A DNA stretch of 64,000 nucleotides, from NCBI GenBank assembly GCA_963707025.1, contig CAVPOM010000004.1, positions 128,001-192,000 of the forward strand, in the 5' to 3' direction. Within the stretch, counting starts at the first letter, position 1; each line of letters begins with the position of its first letter. Source of the stretch: an uncultured Verrucomicrobiae bacterium. Lineage in GTDB: Bacteria > Verrucomicrobiota > Verrucomicrobiia > Limisphaerales > Palsa-1400. A program made the position numbers and the translations under genes. Below the pieces are notes generated by a model that searched no databases, had not been told where the DNA came from, and was given only the letters and a program-made list of their open reading frames with translations. This document shows positions 6,150 to 27,668 of this stretch, piece by piece.

Positions 6150-6238
6150 GGTGAATTATTCATATCAGATTTCTCGATACAGGCAAGGGCCTTTTGATTT
6201 TCGACAGTCACAACAACCATCAACAGAAAGGAAACACC

Positions 6239-6661
6239 ATGGCCGATTATTTCACTAAATTCAGCGTGCCCTTGCCCCTGCCCAATGAAGCCGCACAACG
6301 GTACGCGCTTGACCTGGATGCCAACGCCAGACGCGTCGTGCAATGCGATGCATCTGCCGAAAAACTTCCCGCCTCCGTCCTGGAGGTGATCGAAGACTGG
6401 CTCTTCGAGACGGACCCCGAAAATGCCGATGGCAAATGGGGCCTGTGGCTGCACTCCGATTATGGCGGCATCGCTGCGGTTTGTGCCTTCGTCCAGCATT
6501 TGTTGGAGAAGTTTGATCCAGAAGGCCGGGTGGCCTTCGAGTGGTCGAATGATTGCAGCAAACCGCGCCTGGACGCCTATGGCGGCGGGGCCGCCCTCAT
6601 CACCGCAAAGGAAATCAAAACCATGAACACGTCAGATTGGCTGCGCCAACACGCCGCCTGA
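6239..6661 (+). CDS. Hypothetical protein of the integrative-element operon
   Basis: RBS GAAAGGAA before MADYFTKFS; coherent 140-aa ORF ending CSKPRLDAYGGGA. Confidence 0.7.
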   Translation: MADYFTKFSVPLPLPNEAAQRYALDLDANARRVVQCDASAEKLPASVLEVIEDWLFETDPENADGKWGLWLHSDYGGIAAVCAFVQHLLEKFDPEGRVAFEWSNDCSKPRLDAYGGGAALITAKEIKTMNTSDWLRQHAA

Positions 6662-6688
6662 CACCGTGTTCCCAACCCCGGATCAACC

Positions 6689-7171
6689 ATGCCCAAATTC
6701 GTCTGTTCGTATGCCCATGACATTGCCTGTTTTGCGGACTTTGCCGTGGAGGCCAAAAGCGAGAAGGCCGCCCTGCGTCAAATCAGGAAGGCTCTGCGCG
6801 AAGGCAAATTCGAGAACGTGGAAGCCACTCCCGCCTGGGAGAATGGCAGCACCAATGAGCGGGTCTTTGTCCAGGGTGTGGCAACGGAACATTCGACCGA
6901 CACCACCCTAGAACAACTGGTCGGACAGGAGCACATCTTCAGTACGCACACCCACCGTTGCATTCGCTGCGACAAGTCTGTTGAGGAAGCCGCCATAGAG
7001 GGACCGCTCTGCCGGCCTTATTTCATCAAATCATCAACCCAAGAAAGGAAAAACAATGAGTCACTTCACTCAAATAAAAACGCAAATCAAAGACATCACA
7101 GCCCTCCGTTCCGCGTGTCAGGAGTTGGGATTGGCCCTGCTCCAAAACGCCCAGGCCCGGGGCTATTATGA
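6689..7171 (+). CDS. Hypothetical protein; natural end probably near 7030 with read-through into the next gene
   Basis: ORF in operon order; C-terminal part overlaps the DUF1257 gene. Confidence 0.5.
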   Translation: MPKFVCSYAHDIACFADFAVEAKSEKAALRQIRKALREGKFENVEATPAWENGSTNERVFVQGVATEHSTDTTLEQLVGQEHIFSTHTHRCIRCDKSVEEAAIEGPLCRPYFIKSSTQERKNNESLHSNKNANQRHHSPPFRVSGVGIGPAPKRPGPGLL

Positions 7172-7433
7172 AAACAAAACCAAGGGCGATTTTGTCATCC
7201 GGCTCAAAGGCCCGTATGACATCGCCGTCAACAAACAACCGGACGGCACCTTTGGCCTGACGGCGGATCTTTGGGAAGGTCATGTGGAAGAGGAGGTTGG
7301 AAAAGATTACGGCAGACTCCTCCAGCTTTACGGGGTTCACAAGGCCACGATTGAAGCCAGGAAAAAGGGGCTGTCTGTGCTTCGGCGCCCACAACAAAAC
7401 GGCTCCATCAAACTCGTTCTCACGGGGGTGTAA
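7056..7433 (+). CDS. DUF1257 / Ycf35-family protein
   Basis: MSHFTQIKTQIKD...ALRSACQELG, YDI...DGTFGLTADLW, LLQLYG, NGSIKLVL; RBS GAAAGGAA. Confidence 0.8.
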   Translation: MSHFTQIKTQIKDITALRSACQELGLALLQNAQARGYYENKTKGDFVIRLKGPYDIAVNKQPDGTFGLTADLWEGHVEEEVGKDYGRLLQLYGVHKATIEARKKGLSVLRRPQQNGSIKLVLTGV

Positions 7434-15342: not shown

Positions 15343-16792
15343 CACAGCCATCCCACAGGAAATTGGAAAAAAGTGTTGGCTTGACCATTTGAACCTGCCA
15401 CAAGGCAGGCATGAAAAACAAAAAAATCAAACCGACACGGTCCCGGTTTAACGTTTTGCGCCAGATTTGCAATCTCATTCCTGCGCATGAAGTCTCCAAA
15501 ATAGCGCGGGAGACCGGGCTCTGGATAAGTCGCGCACCTTCAGTCCGTGGAGTCACACGGTCAGTTTGCTGGACGCGCAACTCACCCATTGCATCGGACT
15601 CAACGATCTGTGCGACTCGCTGCAATTGCATTCCGGGCCGCTGTCCACTTTGCGCGGCGCCAGCGCCCCCAGCCGCAACGGCCTCTCCCACGCCAACCGG
15701 GAGCGTCCGGCCCAGATGGCCGAACAACTCTTCTGGCGGGTCCTGGAGCATTTGAAAGCACAGACGCCCGGCTTTGCCGCGGGCCAGCGCCGTGGCCCCG
15801 CCTTCCGTTTCAAGATGCCCATCCATGTGATTGATAGCACGACCATGGAACTGGTGGCCAACTGCCTGGACTGGGCCAAGCACCGCCGGCGCAAGGCCGC
15901 CGCCAAAACCCATATGCGGTTGAATCTGCAGAATCTTTTGCCCGGTTTTGTCATTGTGGACACTGCCGCCGAGCACGACAACCGACGGGCGCGGGAACTG
16001 TGCGCCGACTTGAAGAGCGGCGAAATCGCCTTGTTCGACAAGGGTTATGTGGACTTCGGCCACTTGCGGGATTTGGACGGGCGCGGGGTCTTTTGGGTGA
16101 CGCGGGCCAAGGAGAACATGGGCTATGAGGTGGTGCGGAAAATGCCCGCCTCCAGAGACCCGAAGATTTTGCGCGACGAAGTGATCGTCCTGAGCAACGA
16201 GAACAAACCCGCGCCGGAGTTGATGCGCCGGGTGGTGGCGCTGGTCGAGATTGATGGAGAGGAACGGGAAATGACCTTCCTGACCAACAACCTGGAGTGG
16301 AGTCCGCGCAGCGTGGCCGACCTTTACCGCTGCCGCTGGCAGATCGAAGTCTTCTTCAAACAAATCAAGCAGACCTTGCAGTTGGCGGATTTTCTGGGCC
16401 ACAACGCCAACGCCGTGCGCTGGCAGGTGTGGACGGCGCTGTTGACCTACGTGCTGTTGCGCTACCTCAGTCACCTCTCCAACTGGGCGCACAGCTTCAC
16501 CCGGCTGTTCACGATTTTGCGGGCGGCGCTCTGGGAGAAATATGATCTGCTCAATTTGCTGGCGTGCTATGGGACAGCAGGCGGCAGCTTTCGCCACTTG
16601 GCGCGGCCCGAGCAGGCGTATTTCCCCGGCTTCCAATAAAGCTATGGGACAGCACACGCGCCCAAACAGGCGCATACCAAACCCAAAAGCCAAACTCGGA
16701 AAAATCAAAATCTCATTTTACCCCGAAGACCAATTAAACCCTTGCAAATGAACAGGTCAGCACCAGACTTTTCCCCTTATGAGACGGGTGTG
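15343..16792 (+). mobile_element. IS4-family insertion sequence with 9-bp target-site duplication
   Basis: Imperfect IRs CACAGCCATCCCACAGG / revcomp CACACCCGTCTCATAAG; flanking direct repeat AAACAATTG at 15334-15342 and 16793-16801. Confidence 0.85.
15411..16639 (+). pseudogene. IS4-family DDE transposase (DUF4372 N-terminus), frameshifted near 15520
   Basis: IDSTT, FDKGYVDF, FLTNN, YRCRWQIEVFFKQIKQ (YREK motif); N-terminus MKNKKIKP is in a different frame. Confidence 0.9.
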
Positions 16793-17021: not shown

Positions 17022-17261
17022 ATGAATACAACAAATCACGTCATGACCTTCGCGGCGGACGGTACAGCCCGCTGCCTCTGGACCGAAGCGGTGCCACTTC
17101 ATCAACTTGGCAGGCTGGATGTTCACCGCGCCAGCCAAGTCGAATTCAATACGTCCAAGCAGGTGTGGGAAGCGCGTCTGACATCCAATCCGGGTGCTGT
17201 CGCCTTCGCGCATCCATCAAGGGAAACCTGCCTGCAATGGGAACGGGAGGCGTTGCGATGA
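17022..17261 (+). CDS. Hypothetical protein of the integrative-element operon
   Basis: FAADGTARCLWTEAVPLHQLGRLDVHRASQVEFN; ATGA-coupled to the next gene. Confidence 0.65.
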   Translation: MNTTNHVMTFAADGTARCLWTEAVPLHQLGRLDVHRASQVEFNTSKQVWEARLTSNPGAVAFAHPSRETCLQWEREALR

Positions 17262-17551
17262 AATCCATCACCGTTCACCGGCTGTCACTCCAATTTGACG
17301 CCGGCCAAATCACGCACGGCACTCCCGAAGAACAGGCGGCCCAAGCCATTGTGCTAATCAACGCGGTCCTGCAACGAGAACCGTTTGGCCTGGCCGCCCA
17401 ACTCATCGCCACCCGGGATGAGATTAAGGTCGAATCGGCTGCCGAGTCGCCATGCGAAGCCTGCGATGGCGTGGGGTGGCGGCAATTCAATGTCGGCAAC
17501 GATGAATCGCCCCAATACGAAATTCAGCGCTGCGACGCCTGTGAGCGATAG
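17258..17551 (+). CDS. Hypothetical protein with CxxC motifs, probably truncated
   Basis: CEACDG...RCDAC; coupled start. Confidence 0.5.
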   Translation: MKSITVHRLSLQFDAGQITHGTPEEQAAQAIVLINAVLQREPFGLAAQLIATRDEIKVESAAESPCEACDGVGWRQFNVGNDESPQYEIQRCDACER

Positions 17552-17633
17552 CACGGCGACCAAGCCGCGAGGGAGGCCGCTGCCAGGGCACCTGAATCCT
17601 CCATAACCACTCAAAGAAAGGAGAACACGAACT

Positions 17634-17870
17634 ATGCAAATGGCGCGAACCACTAGTGAGACCATTCACGGCAATCCCGGAGAGCGACGTATCCTGCCCG
17701 CCAACACCCTGGTCGTAATTGTCCCAGCCATCAATCTCCCGCCGGACAGCCCGATCAAGTATTGGGCCTATCCTGTCGAGGGTCACCCCTGGCCAGCCGA
17801 GACCGAGGCATGGGCGGAGGACGTTGGTGCTGGCCTGGGTGCCGATGATGTGGCCTTGGTCAATAAATGA
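17634..17870 (+). CDS. Hypothetical protein
   Basis: RBS GAAAGGAG; 78-aa ORF in operon orientation. Confidence 0.55.
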   Translation: MQMARTTSETIHGNPGERRILPANTLVVIVPAINLPPDSPIKYWAYPVEGHPWPAETEAWAEDVGAGLGADDVALVNK

Positions 17871-17896
17871 AAGGCAAAAACACTTCAACCACCAAC

Positions 17897-18205
17897 ATGA
17901 GCAAGATCATCAGCAAAGTCTGGACCTTTCCATCCGACAGCAATCCCAACGTCAGTTACGAAACCTTGCGGTATGCGGATGGCACAACCTCCTGCAACTG
18001 CGAGGGCTGGACCCGTCGTGTGGCCGCCGATGGCAGCCGCTCGTGCAAACATACACGTTTCGTGGATATGGGCACGGCGGATCAAAGCTGCACGGCCACA
18101 CACAATTACGAAAGTCACCAACCACAACAAAAGGAGCAAATACATCATGCCAAAAATCACATCTGCCAAATCCCCAAACTCGGACATCGCAAAATCTCCG
18201 TCTGA
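17897..18205 (+). CDS. SWIM-type zinc-finger protein
   Basis: SDS...YETLRYADGTTSCNCEGW...SCKH (CxC...CxH). Confidence 0.65.
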   Translation: MSKIISKVWTFPSDSNPNVSYETLRYADGTTSCNCEGWTRRVAADGSRSCKHTRFVDMGTADQSCTATHNYESHQPQQKEQIHHAKNHICQIPKLGHRKISV

Positions 18206-18206
18206 G

Positions 18207-19706
18207 ATGAAGGGAAGAATCATAAACCACATCCGGGCCGGCTACCCGGGGCTTTATCTGGTTTCCCATGAGGAACAGAGGGTCAACCTCGAAATGAAAT
18301 CCATCGCCCGGGAACTCAAATACAACCTGGTTCTCTGGAGCGCGGTGGACGGCCTGGTGGACACCGCAAAGAACACCGCCACCGCCGCCAACGATCCCCT
18401 GGAAGCAGTATTGGCCATCCGGGATATGAAGGAGAAGACGATCATCCTGTTGCGGGATTTTCATTTGTTCCTCCAGGATCCCAACCCCATCCTGATCCGG
18501 CAATTAAAGGACGTGTTGCAGGAGGCCAAGACCAAATTCAAGACCCTGATTATTCTGGGTTGCCGGTTGTGCTTGCCTCCTGAGCTTGAGCGCGAACTGA
18601 CCGTCATCGAAATTGCCCTGCCCGGAAAAGAGGAACTGCGGGTTGTCCTCACCGGCATCATGGAATCGGCCGGCATCAAATCCATGGAGCAGGAAACCAG
18701 GGAGAAGGCGATTGATGCTGCTTCCGGGTTGACCACCATTGAAGCGGAAAATGCATTTGCCCTGTCCGTGGTGGAATCGAAGGGAATAAACCCGGAGATT
18801 GTGGCCAGGGAGAAAGCCCAGGCGGTGAAGAAGAACGGACTCCTGGAACTGGTCGAAGCCAAGGATTCGCTGGAATCCATTGGCGGGCTGGACGTGTTGA
18901 AGGAGTGGTTATTAAAGAGGAGAAATGCCTTCAGCCAAAAAGCCATTGAATACGGCCTGCCAACACCCAAGGGCGTGCTCATTATCGGAATTCCGGGGAC
19001 CGGCAAATCGTTGACGGCCAAAGCCACCGCTAAAGTCTTCGGCGTTCCCCTGCTGAAATTGGACGCCGGCAGGATCTTCGCCGGTCTGGTCGGTCAAAGC
19101 GAATCCAACCTCCGCTCCGTCATCCAAACCGCAGAGGCCATCGCGCCCTGCTGCCTCTGGATTGAGGAATTGGAGAAGGGTTTTGCCGGGAGCAAAAGTT
19201 CAGGATCAACCGATGGCGGCACCTCGGCCCGGGTGTTCGGCAGTTTCATCAGTTGGATGCAGGAAAAGAAAAGTCCTGTCTTCGTGGTGGCTACAGCCAA
19301 TGACGTGTCCCAATTGCCGCCGGAAATGCCGAGGAAGGGGAGGTTCGATGAATTGATGTTCGTGGATCGGCCCAATCAGAATGAACGGGATGCGATCTGC
19401 GGCATTCAGATCCGGAAATATGCACGCAATCCTTCGGACTTTGACCTGGTGCAATTGGCCAGAGTGACGGAGGGGCTGACGGGCAGTGAGATTGAAAGTG
19501 TGTTTGCAGATTCGTTGTACCTGGCTTTTGACAGTGACCGGGAGCCTGGAGATTTGGACGTGGCACATATTCTCACGGAGTTTGTGCCGCTGTCCAAACT
19601 GATGGCGGAGCAAATCACCGGGTTGAGGAACTGGGCGAAGGGGAGGGCGCGGTTGGCCACGTCAACGCAGGAGGTGGGAGGGGGTCCCAGGAGAATTGCC
19701 GCCTGA
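18207..19706 (+). CDS. Ycf46-family AAA+ ATPase, possibly degenerate
   Basis: IRAGYPGLYLVSHEE, LLRDFHLFL, IGGLDVLKEWL, Walker A GIPGTGKS, VFVVATAND, RKGRFDE; Walker B reads WIEELEK. Confidence 0.9.
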   Translation: MKGRIINHIRAGYPGLYLVSHEEQRVNLEMKSIARELKYNLVLWSAVDGLVDTAKNTATAANDPLEAVLAIRDMKEKTIILLRDFHLFLQDPNPILIRQLKDVLQEAKTKFKTLIILGCRLCLPPELERELTVIEIALPGKEELRVVLTGIMESAGIKSMEQETREKAIDAASGLTTIEAENAFALSVVESKGINPEIVAREKAQAVKKNGLLELVEAKDSLESIGGLDVLKEWLLKRRNAFSQKAIEYGLPTPKGVLIIGIPGTGKSLTAKATAKVFGVPLLKLDAGRIFAGLVGQSESNLRSVIQTAEAIAPCCLWIEELEKGFAGSKSSGSTDGGTSARVFGSFISWMQEKKSPVFVVATANDVSQLPPEMPRKGRFDELMFVDRPNQNERDAICGIQIRKYARNPSDFDLVQLARVTEGLTGSEIESVFADSLYLAFDSDREPGDLDVAHILTEFVPLSKLMAEQITGLRNWAKGRARLATSTQEVGGGPRRIAA

Positions 19707-20403: not shown

Positions 20404-21722
20404 CACAAGCCTCCGGTCATTAGTCCCACAACATCAACTGGTTATGACTATTGCTAGGATTATTTTGAGATTGGGTTTGTGTAACCAGTTGTGCCAGAGG
20501 GATTTGCTCAAAAACGTTCACGCTCAAAATCTGTAGGATTTGGGACAAGCTCAACTCCAGCCTAAGTTCCTTGCGAACGATAGCCACCAGCACGTAAACG
20601 CAGATGGCGATCCAGACTTGCGTCTTGACCGCGTTGTCCGTCGTGCCGAAAAAGTGTTTGATCCGCAGGTTTTGCTTGATCCACTTGAAGAACAATTCCA
20701 CCTGCCAGCGGCATTTGTAGAGTTGGGCGATAATAAGGGCGGGCAAGTCAAAGTTATTAGTCAAGAATACCAATATCTTCCCGTCCTTCGGATCTCTATA
20801 ACTGACCCGGCGCAAGCGGTCCGGGTAATGCGCCACGCTTTGGGGCAGACTCAGCCACACGATGTGGTCGCTGCGCACGCCCGTGCTTTTGTCCACCGGA
20901 CGGGACTCCAACCGGTTGAGTTGTACGCCGGCTTTGGTGCGGGTGACAAAGAACGCCCCCGCCAGTTCAAAGCCATAGAGCCGTCGAAAATCCACGTAGG
21001 CGCGATCCATCACATAGAAGGCCCCCGGCTCGGGAATCAATTCGTCCAGCACGCGCACGTCGGCCTGTGTTCCCTCGGTAATCGAGATCATCGTCGGAAT
21101 CGGGCCGCGCAAATCCAGCAGCGTGTGGAGCTTGATCGCGGCCTTGGTAGAGCGAAATCGCGCCTAGGGGAACAAGCTCAGGCAAAGATCAATCGTGGTG
21201 GAATCCAAGGCGTAAACGGTTTGCTCCAACTCGACGGCGAGCGGTTCGTTGGCGTAAAGACGGCGGGCGCGCGCGATGAGCCGTTGCGCCAGGTCGGCGT
21301 AGATGCGCCAGTCGCGCGCGCCGTCGGCGTCGGCCAGGGTGCTATGCGCCACGGTCGAACGGAAACCCATCCGATAGAGTTGGTCTGGCCGCGAGCGCAG
21401 GCAGACTTCGATGTCCGCCAAGCTTTCCCGATAAGTGATCTGAGCGAAGGCCATAGCCAGGAACTGATCCCAACATGGGAAGCTACAAACCTTGTAGTTT
21501 CCATCGTAGCGATTGACACAGCGACGAAATTGTTCGGGATGTATCCACTCGGTCAGTTGCGAAAAAATCAATTTTCCAGTGAGCATGGTGCCAGTTTGGC
21601 ATCATGGCTGCTGCGGAGAATGACAAAACAAAGTTCAAATCGCTCACATCATTTTTCATGCGCATGTGGTTCCCATTGCGCATTTTACAACTGGCGACGT
21701 TCTCCGTGACCGGATGACAGTG
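20404..21722 (-). mobile_element. IS4-family insertion sequence (second, distinct element)
   Basis: Imperfect IRs CACAAGCCTCCGGTCA (20404) and revcomp CACTGTCATCCGGTCA (21722); no long target duplication. Confidence 0.75.
20420..21586 (-). pseudogene. IS4 (DUF4372) transposase with nonsense codon at 21164-21166 and a further lesion
   Basis: MLTGKLIFSQL, WDQFLAMAFAQ, ALDSTTIDLCLSLFP-stop (normally W), MDRAYVDF, YKCRWQVELFFKWIKQ. Confidence 0.9.
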
Positions 21723-21900
21723 ATGTCCCAACGATGTTGGCTCATTGTCACAGCAAGCGCAACAGTTTCTTCCGCAAGGACAGGTCGCGCCCGCCACGGC
21801 CTTTCAGTTCAAATAACCCAAATTGACTCCTTAGAGCCACCACCAGGCAAAAAAATCTGAATGGTTTTGGCTGTCGTACTCACTTCGGGCCCAACTACCG

Positions 21901-22235
21901 TTACAACGTCCTCTTCCCTTCCGCCCTGGCCCTCGCCCATCTCGCCCGGACCGCCGCTGCAAGTTTGGCCCTGGTTGCTGGACTGCTGCGCCGATCCTTC
22001 TTTTTGGAAACCTTCACCCTAGCCCAACGTGCCCTGGCCCCGGCCGCAATCGCCGCCCTTCCCGCCGCACTCAATCGCCTCTTGCTTTTCTTGGCCGCTT
22101 TTGCCATTGCCGAGCGTATCTTCCGCGCCCGCGCCAGAGCCTTAATGAGTTTACGCTTGTGGGCGGCGGTCATGTGATAATTGCGTTTGGCTGGAGTTGG
22201 CACCTCGGCTGGACTGGACACGGCGACTTCTCCAG
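21901..22235 (-). pseudogene. 5'-truncated small basic (Lys/Arg/Ala-rich) putative DNA-binding protein, paralog of 38194..38568
   Basis: KRNYHMTAAHKRKLIKALARARK...SSPATRAKLAAAVRARWARARAEGK. Confidence 0.7.
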
Positions 22236-22687
22236 TATTTGGCCGCGCAATAGAGCGAAATCATCGGCAGACCGACAAGCCCTGCGCGAGAGCTGACGTT
22301 GATAATCAAGCCGCTCTTGTTCCGCCGGAAATGCGGCAACAGCGCCCGCGTGACATCCATCACGCCGAAGACGTTGACATTGAATTGTTCCTGAACCTTT
22401 TCGCGCGAAATCCCCTCGAAGATGCCGAAAAGGCTAAAGCCAGCGTTGTTGATCAAAGCGTCAATCCGGCCGAACCGCCCCATCCCGTCCGCGACGGCCG
22501 CGTCAATGCTCTCTCGATCCTGCACATCCAGTCGTGTGACCAATATGCCAGGCAGGCGGGCCAATTCCGAATCCGCCGCCGGCTGGCGCATGGTGGCAAT
22601 GACGTTCCAGTCGTTACCTGCAAAGACCCTGGCCGCCGCCAGGCCAATACCGGAGGACGCTCCCGTGATCAGAACTGTTTTCTTCAT
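22236..22687 (-). pseudogene. Short-chain dehydrogenase/reductase, 3'-truncated right after the YxxxK motif
   Basis: TVLITGASSGIG, LDV, LINNAG, IINVSS, YCAAK then abrupt switch. Confidence 0.85.
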
Positions 22688-22760
22688 GCACCCCCATCGT
22701 CTCAAGCTTTCACGCAAAAAGCGAATCGCAGGCGCTGGAGCACGGACCACCAATTTCAAC

Positions 22761-22836
22761 GCTCCCGTAGCTCAATCACCAGAGCGCGACGCTTCGAACG
22801 TCGAAGATGAGGGTGAGAGTCCTTCCGGGAGTGCCA
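22761..22836 (+). tRNA. tRNA-Arg(UCG), non-canonical T-loop
   Basis: GCTCCCG/CGGGAGT acceptor; CGACG-CTTCGAA-CGTCG; T-loop TGAGAGT; GCCA end. Confidence 0.85.
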
Positions 22837-22842
22837 ATTCAG

Positions 22843-22919
22843 GCCGCGTTAGCCCAACTACCAGAGGCGCCCCGCTTAGGACGGGGAGGTTGGGGGTGGA
22901 AATCCCTCACGCGGCACCA
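22843..22919 (+). tRNA. tRNA-Leu(UAG), short variable loop
   Basis: GCCGCGT/ACGCGGC; CCCCG-CTTAGGA-CGGGG; T-loop TGGAAAT; ACCA. Confidence 0.85.
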
Positions 22920-22923
22920 CTTT

Positions 22924-22995
22924 GCTCCCGTAGCCCAAAGCAGAGGCGACGGGCTTAAACCCCGTGCAGTGTCAGTGCAAATCTGACCGGGAGCA
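22924..22995 (+). tRNA. tRNA-Leu(UAA), short variable loop, CCA not fully encoded
   Basis: GCTCCCG/CGGGAGC; ACGGG-CTTAAAC-CCCGT; GTCAG-TGCAAAT-CTGAC. Confidence 0.85.
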
Positions 22996-22996
22996 C

Positions 22997-23073
22997 CCGC
23001 GTGTAGCCCAATTAGCAGAGGCGTCCTGCTCAAACCGGGGAGGTTGCAGGTGCAAGTCCTGTCACGCGGACCA
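22997..23073 (+). tRNA. tRNA-Leu(CAA), short variable loop
   Basis: CCGCGTG/CACGCGG; TCCTG-CTCAAAC-CGGGG; GCAGG-TGCAAGT-CCTGT; ACCA. Confidence 0.85.
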
Positions 23074-23077
23074 ATTT

Positions 23078-23165
23078 GGAATGTCAACCGGACACGCGAG
23101 CCGGGCCTGTTTGCTAAACAGTGCGTGCCCTCGGGCAAGTGGCGCAAGTCCACGGCATTCCGCCA
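23078..23165 (+). tRNA. tRNA-Ser(GCU) with 8/4 acceptor/T-stem architecture
   Basis: 8-bp GGAATGTC/GGCATTCC; loop TTGCTAA; V-arm TGCC-CTCG-GGCA; 4-bp GTGG-CGCAAGT-CCAC; GCCA. Confidence 0.85.
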
Positions 23166-23173
23166 TTTTCTGC

Positions 23174-23265
23174 GCGCGCGTAGTTCAAAGTCGAACGGTC
23201 CGTCTTATAAACGGAGTCGCACTAGATGAGTGCCCAGGTCCGGAGCTTACCGGACGCGCGCACCA
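23174..23265 (+). tRNA. Atypical tRNA with UAU (Ile) anticodon and long variable arm
   Basis: GCGCGCG/CGCGCGC; GTTC-AAAGTC-GAAC; TCCGT-CTTATAA-ACGGA; V-arm GCACT-AGATG-AGTGC; TCCGG-AGCTTA-CCGGA; ACCA. Confidence 0.75.
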
Positions 23266-23318
23266 TTTCCAATCACCGTGGTGTTCTCCAGCAATACGTC
23301 AGAATCGTCAAAAGCCCC

Positions 23319-24419
23319 TTAATGCTGATCACCAGTGTTCGTCGAACCTGAATCTTGGACGGGCGCAGGAAGTTTTTGAAGGAAGCTCTCAAGATCAGGA
23401 ACAAGCGTGTTCGCACTCTGTTCGTCGAGAAGAACTCGTAAGGTATAACCTCTCGCAGCTTCATCAAGGTAACGTCGCATCTCAGTGTTCGGCTGGTTGA
23501 ACAATTTCAAAGCCCGGCGTAGGACTGGCGCAGCGTTGGCATCCTTAGCGATTAACAAAGCATGTGCGTAATAGAAAATGCCCCAGTAATCCGTGTGGTT
23601 CCATCCACCAGCTCCGAAGTCGTCCAACCACTTTCCCAGACGGTCGCGGACGTCAGGAACGACCGACATATCTCCAACCTGCACCAGACACAGAGCGTCA
23701 TCCGGTTCATGAGATCGTTCATACTCTTTGCGTATTGTGGCTTTCGCCTCGCTGTTATTGATATGGATCAAGTAGTTCAATGCACCCTGCCGGAGGTACC
23801 AATCGCCGCCGCCATCGGCCTCAATATAGTGTTCAGCATCCGGCATCGCCCTTTGATCACCAATTTTGCCGAGTGCTACGAAGACCTCCTCCTTCACGCG
23901 CCATGCAGACCCTTCCCAGGAATACTGGTGTCGGAGGATTCTCAGCAAAACGTCAGCGCTGTCCTTTGCACGAAGGGTCCCAAGAGTTTCAATCTGCGAA
24001 TCGTATTCGATTAAGGTCAGGTCGGTCCACACGGACTCCAAGTCCTTTTGCAATACTGGGGCAGCACGCAAATCTCCCAGTTTCTGCAACGCGCGACAGA
24101 TGGCCTCCTTTGTATTGTGGTTATTCCCGCACGCTGTGTATGCTCGACAAAGGTTTGCCACCCGGTCGCGCTGCTTTTGGGCGAGTACGCCATTTAATGC
24201 GTCAGGTGTGTTGAAAAACCACAGCGTTGGTAGAATTTGAACAAGTTCGTCGTATCCACCGTCTCCAGCCTCAACCAAGGCGGTCACCTTTTCCTTCTCC
24301 CTGGCGATGCGTTGGTGCCGGCGGTGGTTGCTCAACGACTCCAGAGCATCGGGCAGAACTAGAAGCGTCAGCAACGCGACCAAGATGCTCCAAACCCAAA
24401 ATCAACGTGTCAGTTTCAT
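23319..24419 (-). pseudogene. Membrane-anchored HEAT/PBS-repeat protein; probable true ATG at 24419 followed by an in-frame TGA at codon 6
   Basis: ALQKLGDLRAAPVL, ALGKIGDQRAMP repeats; M-K-L-T-R-stop-F-W-V-W-S-I-L-V-A-L-L in frame with ORF 23319..24383. Confidence 0.65.
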
Positions 24420-24565
24420 GGTGGTCTGTGATAAGAGCGTAACTATTCCAAAGCTGAAATGCACGCGTCATCGCGGAGCCTCGGTCCAAGAAGCCGTTTC
24501 AAATCACTGAACGCGAAACAGCTCCAGCGGCCTCGCGAAGTGCATTTAGCCGGTGAAAGAGCATC

Positions 24566-24637
24566 CGCAGTCGAACCAGCGTTCAGGCAGGCGTCATAAG
24601 CCAGTCGAGCCCAGGGCAGCACTGGGGACTGCGACCA
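24566..24637 (+). tRNA. tRNA with CAU anticodon (Met/Ile2), miniature D-arm
   Basis: CGCAGTC/GACTGCG; loop GTCATAA; CCCAG-GGCAGCA-CTGGG; ACCA. Confidence 0.7.
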
Positions 24638-24642
24638 TTTTC

Positions 24643-24714
24643 GCCTCCATGCAGCAACCTGCGGATTTCTTTTGTAAGGAAATCTAGCCGGAGCATCCCC
24701 GGCTGGAGGCTCCA
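24643..24714 (+). tRNA. tRNA-Thr(UGU), miniature D-arm
   Basis: GCCTCCA/TGGAGGC; GCAG-CAAC-CTGC; loop TTTGTAA; GCCGG-AGCATCC-CCGGC; TCCA. Confidence 0.75.
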
Positions 24715-24722
24715 CAGATTTT

Positions 24723-24799
24723 GCTCGCGTAGTCCAACAGCAGAGACACGACGTCGAGAACGTCGCCAGTGTCCCGACTCGTCGGGACCGCGAGCACCA
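24723..24799 (+). tRNA. tRNA-Leu(GAG), short variable loop, aberrant T-arm
   Basis: GCTCGCG/CGCGAGC; CGACG-TCGAGAA-CGTCG; T-arm is a perfect hairpin GTCCCGAC-TC-GTCGGGAC; ACCA. Confidence 0.75.
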
Positions 24800-24805
24800 G
24801 TTCTT

Positions 24806-24879
24806 GGTCTGCAAGCATTAAAGTGATGCAACTGCCTTTTGAGCCGTTGAACCGGGAGCGTTACCCGGGCGGGCCACCA
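24806..24879 (+). tRNA. tRNA-Lys(UUU)
   Basis: GGTCTGC/GCGGGCC; GCAT-TAAAGTG-ATGC; loop CTTTTGA; CCGGG-AGCGTTA-CCCGG; ACCA. Confidence 0.75.
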
Positions 24880-25654
24880 TTTGGGCCGTGCCAAGATGCA
24901 CCGCCTCCAGCCGGGGACGTTTTGGGTGAAATTGCCCTTCGACGGGGCTGCCCGGCCAAAGGCGGTCCAGCAAGTGGTGCCGGCACCACGACCAGGATTC
25001 GGCCATGCGAGCCCAACGGCTCCGTGCGTTCCGCTCCGGCATGGGCTGCTGCCAGGCATCATCCGTCCCCGGCAAGCCGAGGGCCTGGGCCAGCGCCGCC
25101 GCGATCCGGGCGTGGCCTTCGGCGTTCACATGGAAACGGTCCTCGCTCCAGAGTCGCGGGTCGGAGCCAACCGGGTATGCGGCGAAGTCAATGAGGCGGG
25201 CGCCGGTGGAAGCTGCGGCCTCGCGGATGGTGTCATTCATGGCCCGGACCCGGGGAGCCAGGAGACGGCCGATCGGCATGACGCCGGTGAGGTCCGGGAG
25301 CGTGAAAGTCAACACGACTGCTTTCCCGCCGACGAGCGCCCCCAGCATGCACTCGAGTTCTGCCCGCAGCTTGGCAGCATCGAAACTGCGTTCGAGGATG
25401 TCATTCGAGCCCGCGAAAACCGTCGCGAGGTCGGGCTTCATTGCACGCGCTGGTCCAAGCTGCTCCTCGCGGATTTCCCGGGAGCGCTTGCCGCGCACAC
25501 CCAGGTTAGCGTAGAGCAACCCGCCCTGCGCTTGCGCCACGCGCTCTGCCAGACGGTTCGCCCAGCCACGGTAACCGCCCGCCCCATCCGGGTCTTGGAG
25601 CCCCTCGGTGGAACTGTCGCCGATCGCGACGTAGCGATCGAATCGGAGCGTCAT
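24818..25654 (-). CDS. SGNH/GDSL hydrolase; natural 3' end lost near 24895, frame reads through into tRNA antisense
   Basis: YVAIGDSSTEG, YANLGVRG, FAGSND, DRFHVNAEGH. Confidence 0.85.
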   Translation of the reverse strand: MTLRFDRYVAIGDSSTEGLQDPDGAGGYRGWANRLAERVAQAQGGLLYANLGVRGKRSREIREEQLGPARAMKPDLATVFAGSNDILERSFDAAKLRAELECMLGALVGGKAVVLTFTLPDLTGVMPIGRLLAPRVRAMNDTIREAAASTGARLIDFAAYPVGSDPRLWSEDRFHVNAEGHARIAAALAQALGLPGTDDAWQQPMPERNARSRWARMAESWSWCRHHLLDRLWPGSPVEGQFHPKRPRLEAVHLGTAQMVARPGNAPGSTAQKAVASL

Positions 25655-25759
25655 GACGATATTGTGCGGGATGGCAACGGGGCACGTCTATGTGAACTTG
25701 AAGAAGATGCATTTTCAAACCGGCGGATTTACCCCGTTTTCGGACCGCCACTGACATTT

Positions 25760-25834
25760 TGCCGGGTCGTCTAATTCGTAGGACACTGCCCTTTGAAGGC
25801 GCTTATGTTGGTGCAAATCCAGCCCCGGCAGCCA
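25760..25834 (+). tRNA. tRNA-Gln(UUG)
   Basis: TGCCGGG/CCCGGCA (U1-A72); loop CTTTGAA; GTTGG-TGCAAAT-CCAGC; GCCA. Confidence 0.8.
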
Positions 25835-25839
25835 ATTTT

Positions 25840-25913
25840 CGCCCGGTGGTGAAATAGGATCACGTCCGGCCTACACCCGGAAATCGAGGGGGCAGAACCT
25901 TCCCGGGCGACCA
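25840..25913 (+). tRNA. tRNA-Val(UAC)
   Basis: CGCCCGG/CCGGGCG; TCCGG-CCTACAC-CCGGA; GAGGG-GGCAGAA-CCTTC; ACCA. Confidence 0.8.
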
Positions 25914-25914
25914 T

Positions 25915-25989
25915 TGCCTCGTTGCATAATCAGGAGTGCGCCGGTCTCTGACACCGGAAGACCTGGAGCAAAACCAGGCGAGGCAGCCA
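25915..25989 (+). tRNA. tRNA-Gln(CUG)
   Basis: TGCCTCG/CGAGGCA; CCGGT-CTCTGAC-ACCGG; CCTGG-AGCAAAA-CCAGG; GCCA. Confidence 0.85.
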
Positions 25990-26046
25990 ATTTCATCGTG
26001 AACCCTAATCCCGACCGGCGGGGGTCGAATCGAAATAAATCATTTT

Positions 26047-26091
26047 TATCTTGTTTTTATGATAAACCTTATTTATCCTGTTTACATGATA
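26047..26091. promoter_or_regulatory. Two HipB-type operators
   Basis: TATC-N10-GATA at 26047-26064 and 26074-26091, same 18-bp geometry as E. coli TATCC-N8-GGATA. Confidence 0.75.
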
Positions 26092-26336
26092 TGACGGACT
26101 ACCCGATCAAAACGCCGCAACAGCTTGGCTCTGTGCTCCAAGGATATCGGAGGGAGCAGAGACTGACCCAACAGGCGGTCGGAGCCAAAGTGGGGCTCGC
26201 GCAAAACGCCGTTTCGCAAATTGAGGCCGACCCGGGGAGCGCCGGATTGGCGCGAATCTTCAAGTTATTGGCCGCCCTCGATCTTGAACTTGTCGTGCGG
26301 CCGAGGAAAGCAAACGCACGCCAGTCAGACTGGTGA
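26091..26336 (+). CDS. hipB: HipB-like XRE antitoxin
   Basis: IKTPQQLGSVLQGYRREQRLTQQAVGAKVGLAQNAVSQIE; directly upstream of hipA. Confidence 0.85.
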   Translation: MTDYPIKTPQQLGSVLQGYRREQRLTQQAVGAKVGLAQNAVSQIEADPGSAGLARIFKLLAALDLELVVRPRKANARQSDW

Positions 26337-26339
26337 CGT

Positions 26340-27668
26340 ATGGGCAGGCGTCGAAAGTCCCGCTCCCTCTCCGTGTGGATGAACGGGGAGAAGGTTGGTG
26401 ATTGGCGTGTGGCGGCCACCGGCCAGGAATTCCTCTACGCGGAGAGATGGCTCTCCTCTCCTGCCGCCAGACCCATTTCGCTGTCGTTGCCGTTGCGCCC
26501 TTCCCAAGAACCGTATCGCGATGGCGTGGAAGCATTCTTCGATAATCTGCTGCCTGATAATCGTCAAATCCGCGAGCGAATCCAGCGCCGATTCAATACC
26601 CGGTCGGTTGGGGCGTTCGACCTGTTGCAAGAAATAGGGCGGGATTGTGTTGGCGCGTTGCAATTGATGCCGGAAGACGAGCCACCGCCCGGCATACAGC
26701 AAATCACTGGCGAGCGCCTGACACCAACCGGAGTCGAGCAACTTCTATCCGGGACCTTGGCCCCGACGTTCCATGAAGCAGAGGCGGATGAGGACGCCTT
26801 CCGGATTTCGTTGGCGGGAGCGCAAGAAAAGACGGCGCTGTTGTGGCACAAAGGCGCCTGGCTGCGGCCGACGCATGCGACCCCCACAACGCATATTCTC
26901 AAGCTCCCCATGGGGATCAACACCCAGGGAATTGATCTTTCAACGTCGGTGGAAAACGAATGGCTATGCGCGCAAATAGCAGAGGCGTATGGCATCGAGG
27001 TGGCGAAATGCCGGATCGAAACGTTTGGCCAGTACAAGACACTCGTCGTGGAGCGGTTTGATCGGAGGCTGGCCCCTGATCGGACGTGGCATCTGCGATT
27101 ACCGCAGGAGGACCTTTGCCAGGCGACCACCACGCCCCCGGCACTGAAATACGAGAGCGATGGCGGCCCAGGCATTGCTGTCGTCATGGACCTGTTGCTG
27201 GGTTCGGAGCGAGCGGTTGAGGATCGCCGGGATTTTATGCGCACCCAATTGGTATTCTGGATGCTGGCGGCGATCGACGGCCACGCCAAAAACTTCAGCC
27301 TGTTTATTCTGCCGGGCGGTGCGTATCGGCTGACGCCGCGATATGACATTATGTCCGCCTATCCAATTCTGGGGCACGGCCGCGGCAAGTTGGCGCCGGA
27401 CAAGATCCGAATGGCCATGGCCGTAACGGGGAAGAGTCGTCATTATCGGTGGAAAGAAATTCACGCTCGGCACTGGATCGATACGGCGAGGCGCCAGGGA
27501 CTTGGAGATATGGAGCAAATTATGTCGGATGTGATCGCACGGACACCGGCGGCGATTGACCTGGTGCGCAACATGGTGCCGAGGGGATTTCCTGCTCAGA
27601 TTGCCGAGGCAATACTCGGCGGAATTGAAACGCGCGCAGAACAGCTCAATGCGGAGTTGTCGGACTAA
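26340..27668 (+). CDS. hipA: HipA-family Ser/Thr kinase toxin
   Basis: FFDNLLPD, IGRDCVGAL, RISLAGAQEK, THILKLP, LVVERFDR, QEDLCQA, DGHAKNFS, PRYD. Confidence 0.95.
   Translation: MGRRRKSRSLSVWMNGEKVGDWRVAATGQEFLYAERWLSSPAARPISLSLPLRPSQEPYRDGVEAFFDNLLPDNRQIRERIQRRFNTRSVGAFDLLQEIGRDCVGALQLMPEDEPPPGIQQITGERLTPTGVEQLLSGTLAPTFHEAEADEDAFRISLAGAQEKTALLWHKGAWLRPTHATPTTHILKLPMGINTQGIDLSTSVENEWLCAQIAEAYGIEVAKCRIETFGQYKTLVVERFDRRLAPDRTWHLRLPQEDLCQATTTPPALKYESDGGPGIAVVMDLLLGSERAVEDRRDFMRTQLVFWMLAAIDGHAKNFSLFILPGGAYRLTPRYDIMSAYPILGHGRGKLAPDKIRMAMAVTGKSRHYRWKEIHARHWIDTARRQGLGDMEQIMSDVIARTPAAIDLVRNMVPRGFPAQIAEAILGGIETRAEQLNAELSD

What the first reader, a model, noticed from the sequence alone, without database searches (positions are those of the whole stretch)
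22761..25989. Split array of 13 non-canonical tRNA genes, invisible in the ORF track
Seen: 13 co-oriented cloverleaves in three blocks, with spacers of only 1-8 nt inside a block: Arg-UCG, Leu-UAG, Leu-UAA, Leu-CAA, Ser-GCU, UAU | CAU, Thr-UGU, Leu-GAG, Lys-UUU | Gln-UUG, Val-UAC, Gln-CUG. Twelve encode a full CCA and stems mostly pair, yet none has the near-universal TTC T-loop. Established: horizontally mobile tRNA arrays exist, and bacteria normally avoid a UAU anticodon and mostly read CGA with ICG. Inference: this is an accessory tRNA set with its own structural rules. It might serve as a stress-induced backup, as decoys for tRNA-targeting toxins, or as substrates for dedicated synthetases. 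It is the best candidate here for an under-described system.
Basis: partly seen in the sequence, partly recalled or inferred. Interest (0 to 1): 0.88.

Follow-up and report, generated by a model that had tools for sequence, protein, structure and literature searches.

The report
Headless spare-tRNA array with swapped elbow
These 13 odd tRNA genes are real: they are the tail end of a mobile set of spare tRNAs whose corner is locked by a different base pair than in textbook tRNAs, and intact copies sit behind a likely switch that senses stalled ribosomes, which this copy has lost.

Summary
All 13 cloverleaves are there. They are the 3' part of a long tRNA array (L-array type, a known class); the genome holds two longer copies. 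The missing TTC loop is not decay. G55 stands in 413 of 424 distinct genes from related arrays and covaries with A18. In viral contigs, U55 goes with G18G19 in 587 of 594 genes and G55 with A18G19 in 83 of 91. A stand-alone tRNA-Glu(CUC) of this order is A18/G55 in 19 genes and G18/U55 in 12, never mixed. Intact arrays begin with a conserved leader: a 53-57-codon ORF with all 20 amino acids in 13 of 17 copies, wired to a terminator/antiterminator. This points to induction when ribosomes slow (inferred). The window copy lacks that leader and the HNH gene, and several genes carry lesions, so it is probably a silent remnant. Dedicated synthetases were not found. I found no paper on the elbow swap, but this scan noted both elbow and leader attenuators before on other DNA, the elbow also in this genome.

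The parts
22761..22836 (+). tRNA-Arg(UCG); G55, A56; lacks A20, the main ArgRS determinant, as do its close orthologues
   Evidence: A20 rule from PMC9976931 passages
22843..22919 (+). tRNA-Leu(UAG); short variable loop; A18 C19 with G55 G56; most orthologues read CAG
22924..22998 (+). tRNA-Leu(UAA); short variable loop; 3' end ACCC, overlapping the next gene by 2 nt; only 2 of 14 orthologues end in CCA
22997..23073 (+). tRNA-Leu(CAA); short variable loop; A18 G19 with G55 C56
23078..23165 (+). tRNA-Ser(GCU), 8/4 acceptor/T-stem, long variable arm, G73; position 23095 (D-loop, read as 18) is C where 32 of 32 orthologues have A
23174..23265 (+). tRNA with UAU anticodon, 7/5, long variable arm, A73; T-loop shortened to 6 nt in this copy; Ile identity untested
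23319..24383 (-). Inserted antisense ORF, 354 aa, HEAT repeats; no match above 45% identity in the other loci or elsewhere in the genome
24566..24637 (+). tRNA with CAU anticodon; 4-bp D-stem with tetraloop directly after the acceptor stem (two-sided change among orthologues); G54 G55 G58 loop; Met or Ile identity undetermined
24643..24714 (+). tRNA-Thr(UGU); D tetraloop, U73; position 24657 is A where 22 of 22 orthologues have G
24723..24799 (+). tRNA-Leu(GAG), probably a pseudogene: T arm (24771-24788) replaced by the core of a genome-wide palindromic repeat
24806..24879 (+). tRNA-Lys(UUU); A54 G55 U58 loop; position 37 (24841) is G where 45 of 45 orthologues have A; one anticodon-stem mismatch
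24818..25654 (-). Inserted antisense GDSL-family hydrolase ORF, 278 aa, whose end runs into Lys-UUU; same insertion in 4 of 46 other arrays; 92% paralogue at C4:97942-98704
25760..25834 (+). tRNA-Gln(UUG); U54 G55 C56; position 25787 is T where 27 of 27 orthologues have C
25840..25913 (+). tRNA-Val(UAC); G54 G55 G58 loop; C33 shared with orthologues
25915..25989 (+). tRNA-Gln(CUG), last gene of the array
22151..22687 (-). Truncated short-chain dehydrogenase ORF at the 5' break; the same insertion precedes Arg-UCG in the C8 copy (about 91% amino-acid identity)
20420..21586 (-). Broken IS transposase (DUF4372 and DDE_Tnp_1) just upstream of the break
26091..27668 (+). hipB-hipA toxin-antitoxin pair, standing where intact arrays have the HNH gene

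Best explanation
The stretch is the decapitated 3' part of a mobile long tRNA array that is common in Verrucomicrobiota. SHOWN: the family keeps one gene order and a near-complete anticodon set. Its tRNAs replace G18/U55 by A18/G55 and mostly keep the 19-56 pair (G-C, C-G, partly U-A). Intact copies start with a promoter-like site and a conserved leader ORF overlapping a terminator/antiterminator, and end in an HNH gene, often with RtcB and Ro60. INFERRED: the leader is a general attenuator. A ribosome that reaches the stop covers the antiterminator segment and transcription ends; a ribosome slowed at almost any codon lets transcription run into the tRNAs. The tRNAs are charged by host synthetases and act as an emergency pool during translation stress or tRNA damage. 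A18 and G55 dock as in riboswitch YGNRA T-loops, so the L-shape survives without pseudouridine 55. THIS COPY has lost the leader, about two thirds of the genes and the HNH gene, and is probably silent or only read through.
For: G55 in 413 of 424 genes. D-loop by T-loop table: G55C56 with AG 224 of 257; G55G56 with AC 14 of 17; U55C56 with GG 6 of 7. Viral set with the bait gene left out: 587 of 594 and 83 of 91. Stand-alone Glu-CUC: 19 A18/G55, 12 G18/U55, none mixed. For 12 of the 13 genes, 4-12 of 20-24 stem pairs show two-sided changes among orthologues. Leader ORF is open for 53-57 codons in 17 of 17 despite indels, with 38-47 codon types against a mean of 29.5 in coding windows. Antiterminator 153 of 153 cells paired (slid controls 38-83); terminator 186 of 187. 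HNH in 23 of 24 arrays with enough 3' flank; RtcB 15 of 46; TROVE 16 of 46. No leader match and no HNH, RtcB or TROVE in the window. Precedents: the Anabaena array is induced, charged and on polysomes (PMC8421152 section 21); YGNRA loops take an adenosine (bioRxiv 10.1101/2022.12.26.521914 passages).
Against: No expression, charging or structure data. RNA runs gave only short contigs of relatives. G55A56 genes show AT at 18-19 in only 15 of 34, and the window's Arg-UCG has C19 opposite A56. The Arg genes lack A20, and G18G19 is reported as essential for E. coli LeuRS (PMC9976931 passages). 123 of 813 G55 genes in the bacterial sets have C33. In my folding model the antiterminator is weak at codons 15-45 in 4-5 of 17 leaders, and the hairpin just before the first tRNA always formed (12 of 12 scorable), so no switch was shown for the second leader ORF. 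Against base shuffles the 20-amino-acid content is only P about 0.05-0.07 (6 leaders tested), and the sequences are related. The window's load of rare changes (6 of 530 sites, rank 12 of 26 copies) is ordinary, so its decay is no faster than in other copies.
Confidence: 0.62

Rival explanations
1. The elbow swap is an escape mutation: the whole set avoids nucleases or other enzymes that read the universal T-loop/D-loop sequence, while Y-RNA-like elements with canonical loops and RtcB absorb and repair the damage.
For: The swap is array-wide and recurs in phage tRNAs. In the C8 copy, YrlA-like RNAs (E 1.6e-6 and 1.7e-5, below the gathering score) keep TTC loops beside G55 tRNAs. A bacterial CDI tRNase is reported to cut between the T-loop thymidine and pseudouridine (review PMC9086364, passage).
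Against: No such enzyme was identified in these hosts. Most phage arrays are mixed, with only a few G55 genes. The single housekeeping Glu-CUC toggles both ways, which also fits a neutral alternative fold.
Confidence: 0.3
2. A18/G55 is a neutral, self-sufficient elbow that needs no TruB modification; it became fixed in a founder array and spread with the HNH gene, with no special benefit.
For: The host has TruB and canonical genes for 12 of the window's 13 anticodons. The arrays are patchy (21 of 60 relatives), eroded and often interrupted.
Against: About 30 unrelated isotypes carry the same double change, which a single founder event does not explain easily. The leader switch is tightly conserved.
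Confidence: 0.3
3. The RNAs are decoys or Ro60/RtcB substrates and do not take part in translation.
For: Missing identity elements, odd D-arms and C33. Toxin-antitoxin and RNA-repair neighbours. A sponge role was proposed for the Anabaena array (PMC8421152 section 25).
Against: Near-complete anticodon set, CCA in 742 of 813 G55 genes, fitting discriminator bases, and a stand-alone gene with the same elbow.
Confidence: 0.15
4. The non-canonical loops are random decay of ordinary tRNA genes.
For: This copy does carry lesions and has lost its head.
Against: One base (G) at position 55 in 413 of 424 genes, with matching D-loop changes and compensated stems.
Confidence: 0.02
5. The tRNAs are substrates of dedicated synthetases.
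For: Several lack known host identity elements.
Against: No synthetase among the 32 commonest neighbour clusters of 58 loci (read by eye). PF00133 hit 5 separate ORFs, PF00587 4 and PF00750 1, none near an array. The other synthetase families were not searched.
Confidence: 0.05

Closest known systems
L-arrays: the trn operon of Anabaena (Nostoc) sp. PCC 7120 plasmid delta (Santamaria-Gomez et al. 2021, PMC8421152; TrcR, PMC10272220)
   Same: Long co-oriented, non-periodic set of supernumerary tRNA genes, patchy among relatives, with an HNH gene and RtcB linkage. Short-variable-loop Leu genes with the same D-arm, and an 8/4 Ser gene. The paper's survey lists one 18-gene array among 12 Verrucomicrobia genomes (supplement).
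   Different: Anabaena keeps TTC in 20 of the 22 genes my finder found; here G55 is array-wide. Gene order differs. HNH is downstream, not upstream. Control appears to be a leader-ORF attenuator rather than the cyanobacterial TrcR repressor. The window copy is truncated.
Mycobacterial and phage tRNA array units with HNH endonuclease (Morgado and Vicente 2018, PMC5966550)
   Same: Dense mobile tRNA clusters with an HNH gene as the commonest neighbour (passages).
   Different: The main text has no occurrence of T-loop, leader or attenuation. Their elbows were not examined here.
(8/4) tRNA-Ser and allo-tRNA(UAU) (Mukai et al. 2017, PMC5389517)
   Same: The array Ser-GCU has an 8/4 branch, long variable arm and G73.
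   Different: The UAU gene here is 7/5 with A73, not 8/4 with G73 or U73. Three of four motifs of these genes are absent from the held supplement table, and the fourth hits an unrelated tRNA.
YGNRA T-loop with adenosine receptor in FMN and cobalamin riboswitches (bioRxiv 10.1101/2022.12.26.521914)
   Same: G at loop position 2 with an adenosine from the partner loop; the paper states tRNA loops differ by having U there (passages).
   Different: Here the motif sits in tRNAs; the geometry of A18 with G55 is inferred, not solved.
Leader-peptide transcription attenuators of amino-acid operons (trp, his, ilv; recalled, no call)
   Same: Short translated ORF with alternative 1:2, 2:3 and 3:4 pairings and a U-tailed terminator.
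   Different: The ORF samples nearly all amino acids instead of one to three, and it precedes tRNA genes. It is absent from the window copy.

Membership tests
L-array (PMC8421152) | Long run of co-oriented, closely spaced, non-periodic tRNA genes | tested here: met
   13 genes here; up to 35 found in intact homologues with a shared order. The window copy alone is a fragment.
L-array (PMC8421152) | Supernumerary: mostly duplicates host anticodons | tested here: met
   Canonical host genes exist for 12 of the 13 anticodons; only UAU is new.
L-array (PMC8421152) | Patchy distribution, signs of horizontal spread | tested here: met
   21 of 60 relatives match block 1, some weakly; three copies in one genome; G55 sets on viral contigs. 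No tree test was run.
L-array (PMC8421152) | Linked HNH endonuclease and RNA-repair genes | tested here: inconclusive
   Met for the family (HNH 38 of 46, RtcB 15 of 46); not met for the window copy.
L-array (PMC8421152) | Silent in normal growth, induced by translation stress; tRNAs charged | not testable with these tools
   Only contigs of relatives were available.
TrcR regulon (PMC10272220) | TrcR repressor and its repeats at the promoter | not tested
   The paper describes TrcR as restricted to cyanobacteria and two cyanophages; I did not search for it.
allo-tRNA (PMC5389517) | 8/4 or 9/3 acceptor branch, long variable arm, G73 or U73 | tested here: met
   Met for Ser-GCU (23078-23165) only.
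allo-tRNA(UAU) (PMC5389517) | 8/4 branch with G73 or U73 | tested here: not met
   The UAU gene is 7/5 with A73; all 28 distinct long-arm UAU genes found have A73.
Canonical tRNA elbow | G18G19 with U54 U55 C56 | tested here: not met
   0 of 13 in the window; 45 of 47 non-array calls of the host have TTC.
Leader-peptide attenuator (intact arrays) | Conserved short ORF overlapping mutually exclusive antiterminator and terminator | tested here: met
   17 of 17 leaders open; pairings 153 of 153 and 186 of 187. Absent from the window.
Leader-peptide attenuator (intact arrays) | Read-through depends on ribosome stalling | not testable with these tools
   The folding model fits only in part and partly by construction.

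The most novel reading that the evidence does not exclude
Intact members of this family are a self-regulating emergency translation kit. A leader ORF that samples almost every amino acid senses damage to any tRNA and switches on a full second tRNA set. That set's A18/G55 elbow makes it invisible to enzymes that read the universal T-loop, while canonical-loop Y-like RNAs, Ro60 and RtcB handle the damage. Phages and one housekeeping tRNA have adopted the same elbow.
Probability: 0.27. Interest if true: 0.88.

Novelty: new variant of a known kind. Interest (0 to 1): 0.64.

Why it matters
G18-pseudouridine 55 is taught as near-universal. Hundreds of natural genes with a matched A18/G55, and an almost identical housekeeping gene that occurs in both states, give a clean test of what the tRNA elbow really requires. 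These genes are under-called by standard tools (5 to 7 of 13 here), so tRNA inventories of Verrucomicrobiota and phages are incomplete. The candidate pan-amino-acid attenuator makes the open question of how cryptic tRNA arrays are switched on outside cyanobacteria directly testable with a reporter. The window copy itself matters less: it is a headless fragment, and the intact copies are the ones to study.

Tried and rejected
ARAGORN at lowered thresholds gave mostly noise (444 calls at ps90), so I wrote a cloverleaf finder. Its first version missed the UAU gene and was widened; it misplaces Leu-GAG by one base. The Leu-GAG row used wrong coordinates and is discarded, so the lesion load covers 12 genes. 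A Leu-based pattern found 0 viral contigs. A phylum-wide pattern for G55 Glu-CUC (15 of 301 genomes) gave mostly non-tRNA matches with similar control counts and is not used. Sequencing runs held at most 0.13 of the words; laid contigs were short pieces of relatives, also covered the inserted GDSL gene, and do not show expression. The consensus promoter scan of 21600-26400 found 1 site against 1.7 expected. The window's apparent membership in the HNH cluster was a chaining artefact; tblastn finds no HNH on that contig. A host that depends on the array's Ser-GCU was rejected: a canonical gene lies at the end of contig C12. No switch could be shown for the second leader ORF. No tyrosine integrase lies inside the window. 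Paper searches: G55, A18, T-loop, tRNA array, reverse Hoogsteen, elbow; 1 paper, on riboswitches; 1, tRNA-Pyl; 3; 3, none on this; purine trap; 0; 2; one search was swamped by clinical papers and is uninformative. No search was aimed at attenuators of tRNA operons; only two array papers were read for it (sections of PMC8421152; term search in PMC5966550). The library lacks most subscription papers. I recall, without a call, in vivo selections of D/T-loop variants from the Steinberg laboratory and a 2012 paper on the Anabaena cluster; either may bear on novelty.
Full report
OBSERVATION. The 13 cloverleaves are in the sequence as described. ARAGORN finds 5 and Rfam 7. A cloverleaf finder written here finds all 13; 400 shuffles never gave more than one hit, and the rest of the window gave none at score 52 or more. 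Twelve end in CCA and none has TTC. Leu-UAA overlaps Leu-CAA by 2 nt. Twelve have G at position 55; in Leu-GAG the T arm is a different hairpin.

WHAT IT BELONGS TO. The window lies on contig C4 of a 6.96-Mb, 88% complete genome. Two longer arrays lie on C2 and C8, with 24 and 23 genes found. Block 1 matches 21 of 60 relatives, some only weakly. Their arrays share one order: Gly, Trp, Ala, Met, Pro, Arg, Asn, Ser, Ile, Phe, Glu, Arg, Thr, His, Cys, Gly, Lys, then Arg-UCG through Gln-CUG. The window holds only this last part. A Lys-UUU pattern found 49 genome loci, 38 of them titled as Verrucomicrobiota or its subgroups, so I infer that phylum for the host. Among 46 distinct arrays with at least 8 G55 genes, tblastn found HNH in 38, TROVE/Ro60 in 16 and RtcB in 15; HNH was present in 23 of 24 arrays with enough 3' flank (families confirmed). 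Flanks were limited, so these are lower bounds. This is the anatomy of L-arrays (PMC8421152; I read the abstract, sections 4, 18, 21 and 25, term passages and supplement rows).

THE ELBOW. Of 424 distinct genes with 7-nt T-loops from related loci, 413 have G55 (the set includes the window and a few flanking host genes). Allowing three register offsets, the D-loop carries AG in 224 of 257 genes with G55C56, AC in 14 of 17 with G55G56, AT in 15 of 34 with G55A56, and GG in 6 of 7 with U55C56. Orthologous Leu genes show three states: GG with UUC, AG with UGC, AC with UGG. Positions 54, 58 and 60 also move together (U-A-U 224, A-U-A 63, G-G-A 47). The same pattern found 76 viral loci, mostly mixed arrays; L086 (21 of 21) and L107 (18 of 20) are nearly all G55. 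With the bait gene left out, U55 goes with GG in 587 of 594 genes and G55 with AG in 83 of 91. The cleanest case is outside the arrays. The host's stand-alone tRNA-Glu(CUC) is A18/G55; among 31 full genes from the 31 loci read (52 of 61 genomes matched; one locus was truncated, one held two genes), 19 are A18/G55, 12 are G18/U55 and none is mixed, at 95% mean column identity in a 14-gene subset. It occurs in genomes with no array match, such as G001, G002 and G009. The Anabaena array keeps TTC in 20 of 22 genes found, so the array-wide swap is the distinguishing trait. Structural precedent: riboswitch T-loops of consensus YGNRA take an adenosine from the partner loop (bioRxiv 10.1101/2022.12.26.521914, passages). 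Kin are not independent, so the counts overstate the number of events.

THE LEADER OF INTACT ARRAYS. About 590 nt before the first tRNA are conserved (17 sequences aligned) and had no Rfam match in the five loci scanned. They follow a promoter-like site seen by eye. The first ORF is open for 53-57 codons in 17 of 17, starts with ATG in 16, has all 20 amino acids in 13 and 19 in 4, and uses 38-47 codon types. In 56-codon windows of host genes the mean is 29.5, P(38 or more) is 0.0075 and P(20 amino acids) is 0.018; against base shuffles of six leaders the excess is weaker. Its last codons pair with the 5' arm of a U-tailed terminator: 153 of 153 cells, one column compensated in 3 sequences, slid controls 38-83; the terminator pairs in 186 of 187. 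With a modelled ribosome at codon 5 the antiterminator forms in 17 of 17; at the stop it cannot, partly by construction; at codons 15-45 it is weak in 4-5 leaders. A second ORF of 60-65 codons follows, for which no switch was shown. A profile of the leader hits C2 and C8 but not the window.

THIS COPY. It starts at a truncated dehydrogenase insertion shared with the C8 copy, next to a broken IS. It is split by an antisense HEAT-repeat ORF, not found elsewhere, and an antisense GDSL ORF, shared with 4 of 46 arrays. It ends at hipBA instead of HNH; HNH, RtcB and TROVE are on other contigs. Lesions at positions invariant in orthologues affect Ser-GCU, CAU, Thr-UGU, Lys-UUU and Gln-UUG. The Leu-GAG T arm matches a palindrome with 53 genomic copies, 0.5 expected. 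Its load of rare changes ranks 12 of 26 copies, so erosion is general in the family. Sequencing runs gave no evidence on expression.

MECHANISM. Most likely (0.62) the intact arrays are a spare tRNA set opened by ribosome slowing and charged by host enzymes, with a second workable elbow, and this copy is a remnant. Sequence anatomy and covariation are shown; induction, charging and the reason for the swap are inferred. Escape from T-loop-reading enzymes (0.3) and neutral fixation (0.3) are alternative reasons for the swap and are compatible with the backup role. A pure decoy role is less likely (0.15). Against function: Arg genes lack A20, and G18G19 is reported as essential for E. coli LeuRS (PMC9976931, passages). 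Dedicated synthetases were not found. The host has TruB and a TilS-family gene.

WHAT IS KNOWN. L-arrays, their HNH and RtcB neighbours and stress induction are published (PMC8421152; PMC5966550, passages; PMC10272220, passages). (8/4) tRNA-Ser is published (PMC5389517, parts 2-3 of 5 and supplement searches). A review of non-canonical tRNAs showed no A18/G55 class in the passages seen (PMC7609411). The CDI review was seen in passages only (PMC9086364). The searches listed under Tried and rejected did not find the A18/G55 elbow in print; none targeted the attenuator, and supplementary figures were not visible. This scan's notes already record the elbow many times, once in this genome, and leader attenuators before other tRNA arrays. 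I noted the elbow idea and saw the leader before those look-ups; the riboswitch comparison came from note e1-7688037.

VERDICT. Real; a new variant of a known kind; a truncated copy of a family whose elbow and leader deserve experiment. Interest 0.64.

Noticed in passing
G000 C7:240632-240706 (-), L186:4633-4707; L190-L219: Stand-alone tRNA-Glu(CUC) toggles between A18/G55 (19 genes) and G18/U55 (12 genes) across the order: a ready-made test pair.
   Followed up: yes
L052:16223-16815 (-) and 16 other loci (alignment A2): Conserved leader with a pan-amino-acid ORF and attenuator-like switch, a second ORF of 60-65 codons, and a further U-tailed hairpin directly before the first tRNA whose role is unexplained.
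   Followed up: partly
window 24771-24788; G000 C2:107176; L054 Thr-UGU: The core of a 53-copy palindromic repeat replaces a tRNA arm: the T arm of Leu-GAG here, and the D arm of Thr-UGU in C2 and in one other genome.
   Followed up: partly
L052:13365-14005 (-): Several Y-RNA-like elements (weak YrlA and Y RNA matches) before the Ro60 gene keep canonical TTC loops inside an otherwise G55 array.
   Followed up: partly
L036:11755-11830 (+); L148: The Arg-UCG slot carries a UCA anticodon (opal-suppressor-like) in L036; a G55 gene with a UUA anticodon occurs in L148.
   Followed up: no
window 23174-23265; L070, L077, L101, L107, L113, L119, L146, L169: Long-arm UAU tRNAs recur in phage and bacterial arrays, all with A73 and a variable-arm loop that contains GAU, the usual Ile anticodon.
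   Followed up: partly
L086, L107, L169: A viral contig with 21 of 21 G55 tRNAs, one with 18 of 20, and a record titled Sphingobacteriales with 13 of 14.
   Followed up: partly
window 15343-16792: An IS-like element with more than 40 near-identical copies in the genome, whose 357-aa ORF has no Pfam or NCBIfam match.
   Followed up: no
window 17022-19706 and 6194-7433: Small-ORF clusters with an AAA ATPase and a DUF1257 gene, with 86-91% paralogous pieces on C5, C6 and C9; they look like decayed mobile-element cargo.
   Followed up: no
window 21901-22221 (-): Small basic ORF with several genomic paralogues at the array's 5' break; no family match.
   Followed up: no
G000 C2:97389-98173; L031, L038, L138: The C2 array lies about 8 kb from an integrase beside tRNA-Pro; three other arrays lie just after a canonical tRNA-Gly, suggesting integration at tRNA genes.
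   Followed up: no
L150, L180, L156, L183: Records titled Saccharimonadales or Bifidobacteriaceae carry the Verrucomicrobiota-type array at 56-59% GC; the titles or bins may be wrong.
   Followed up: no
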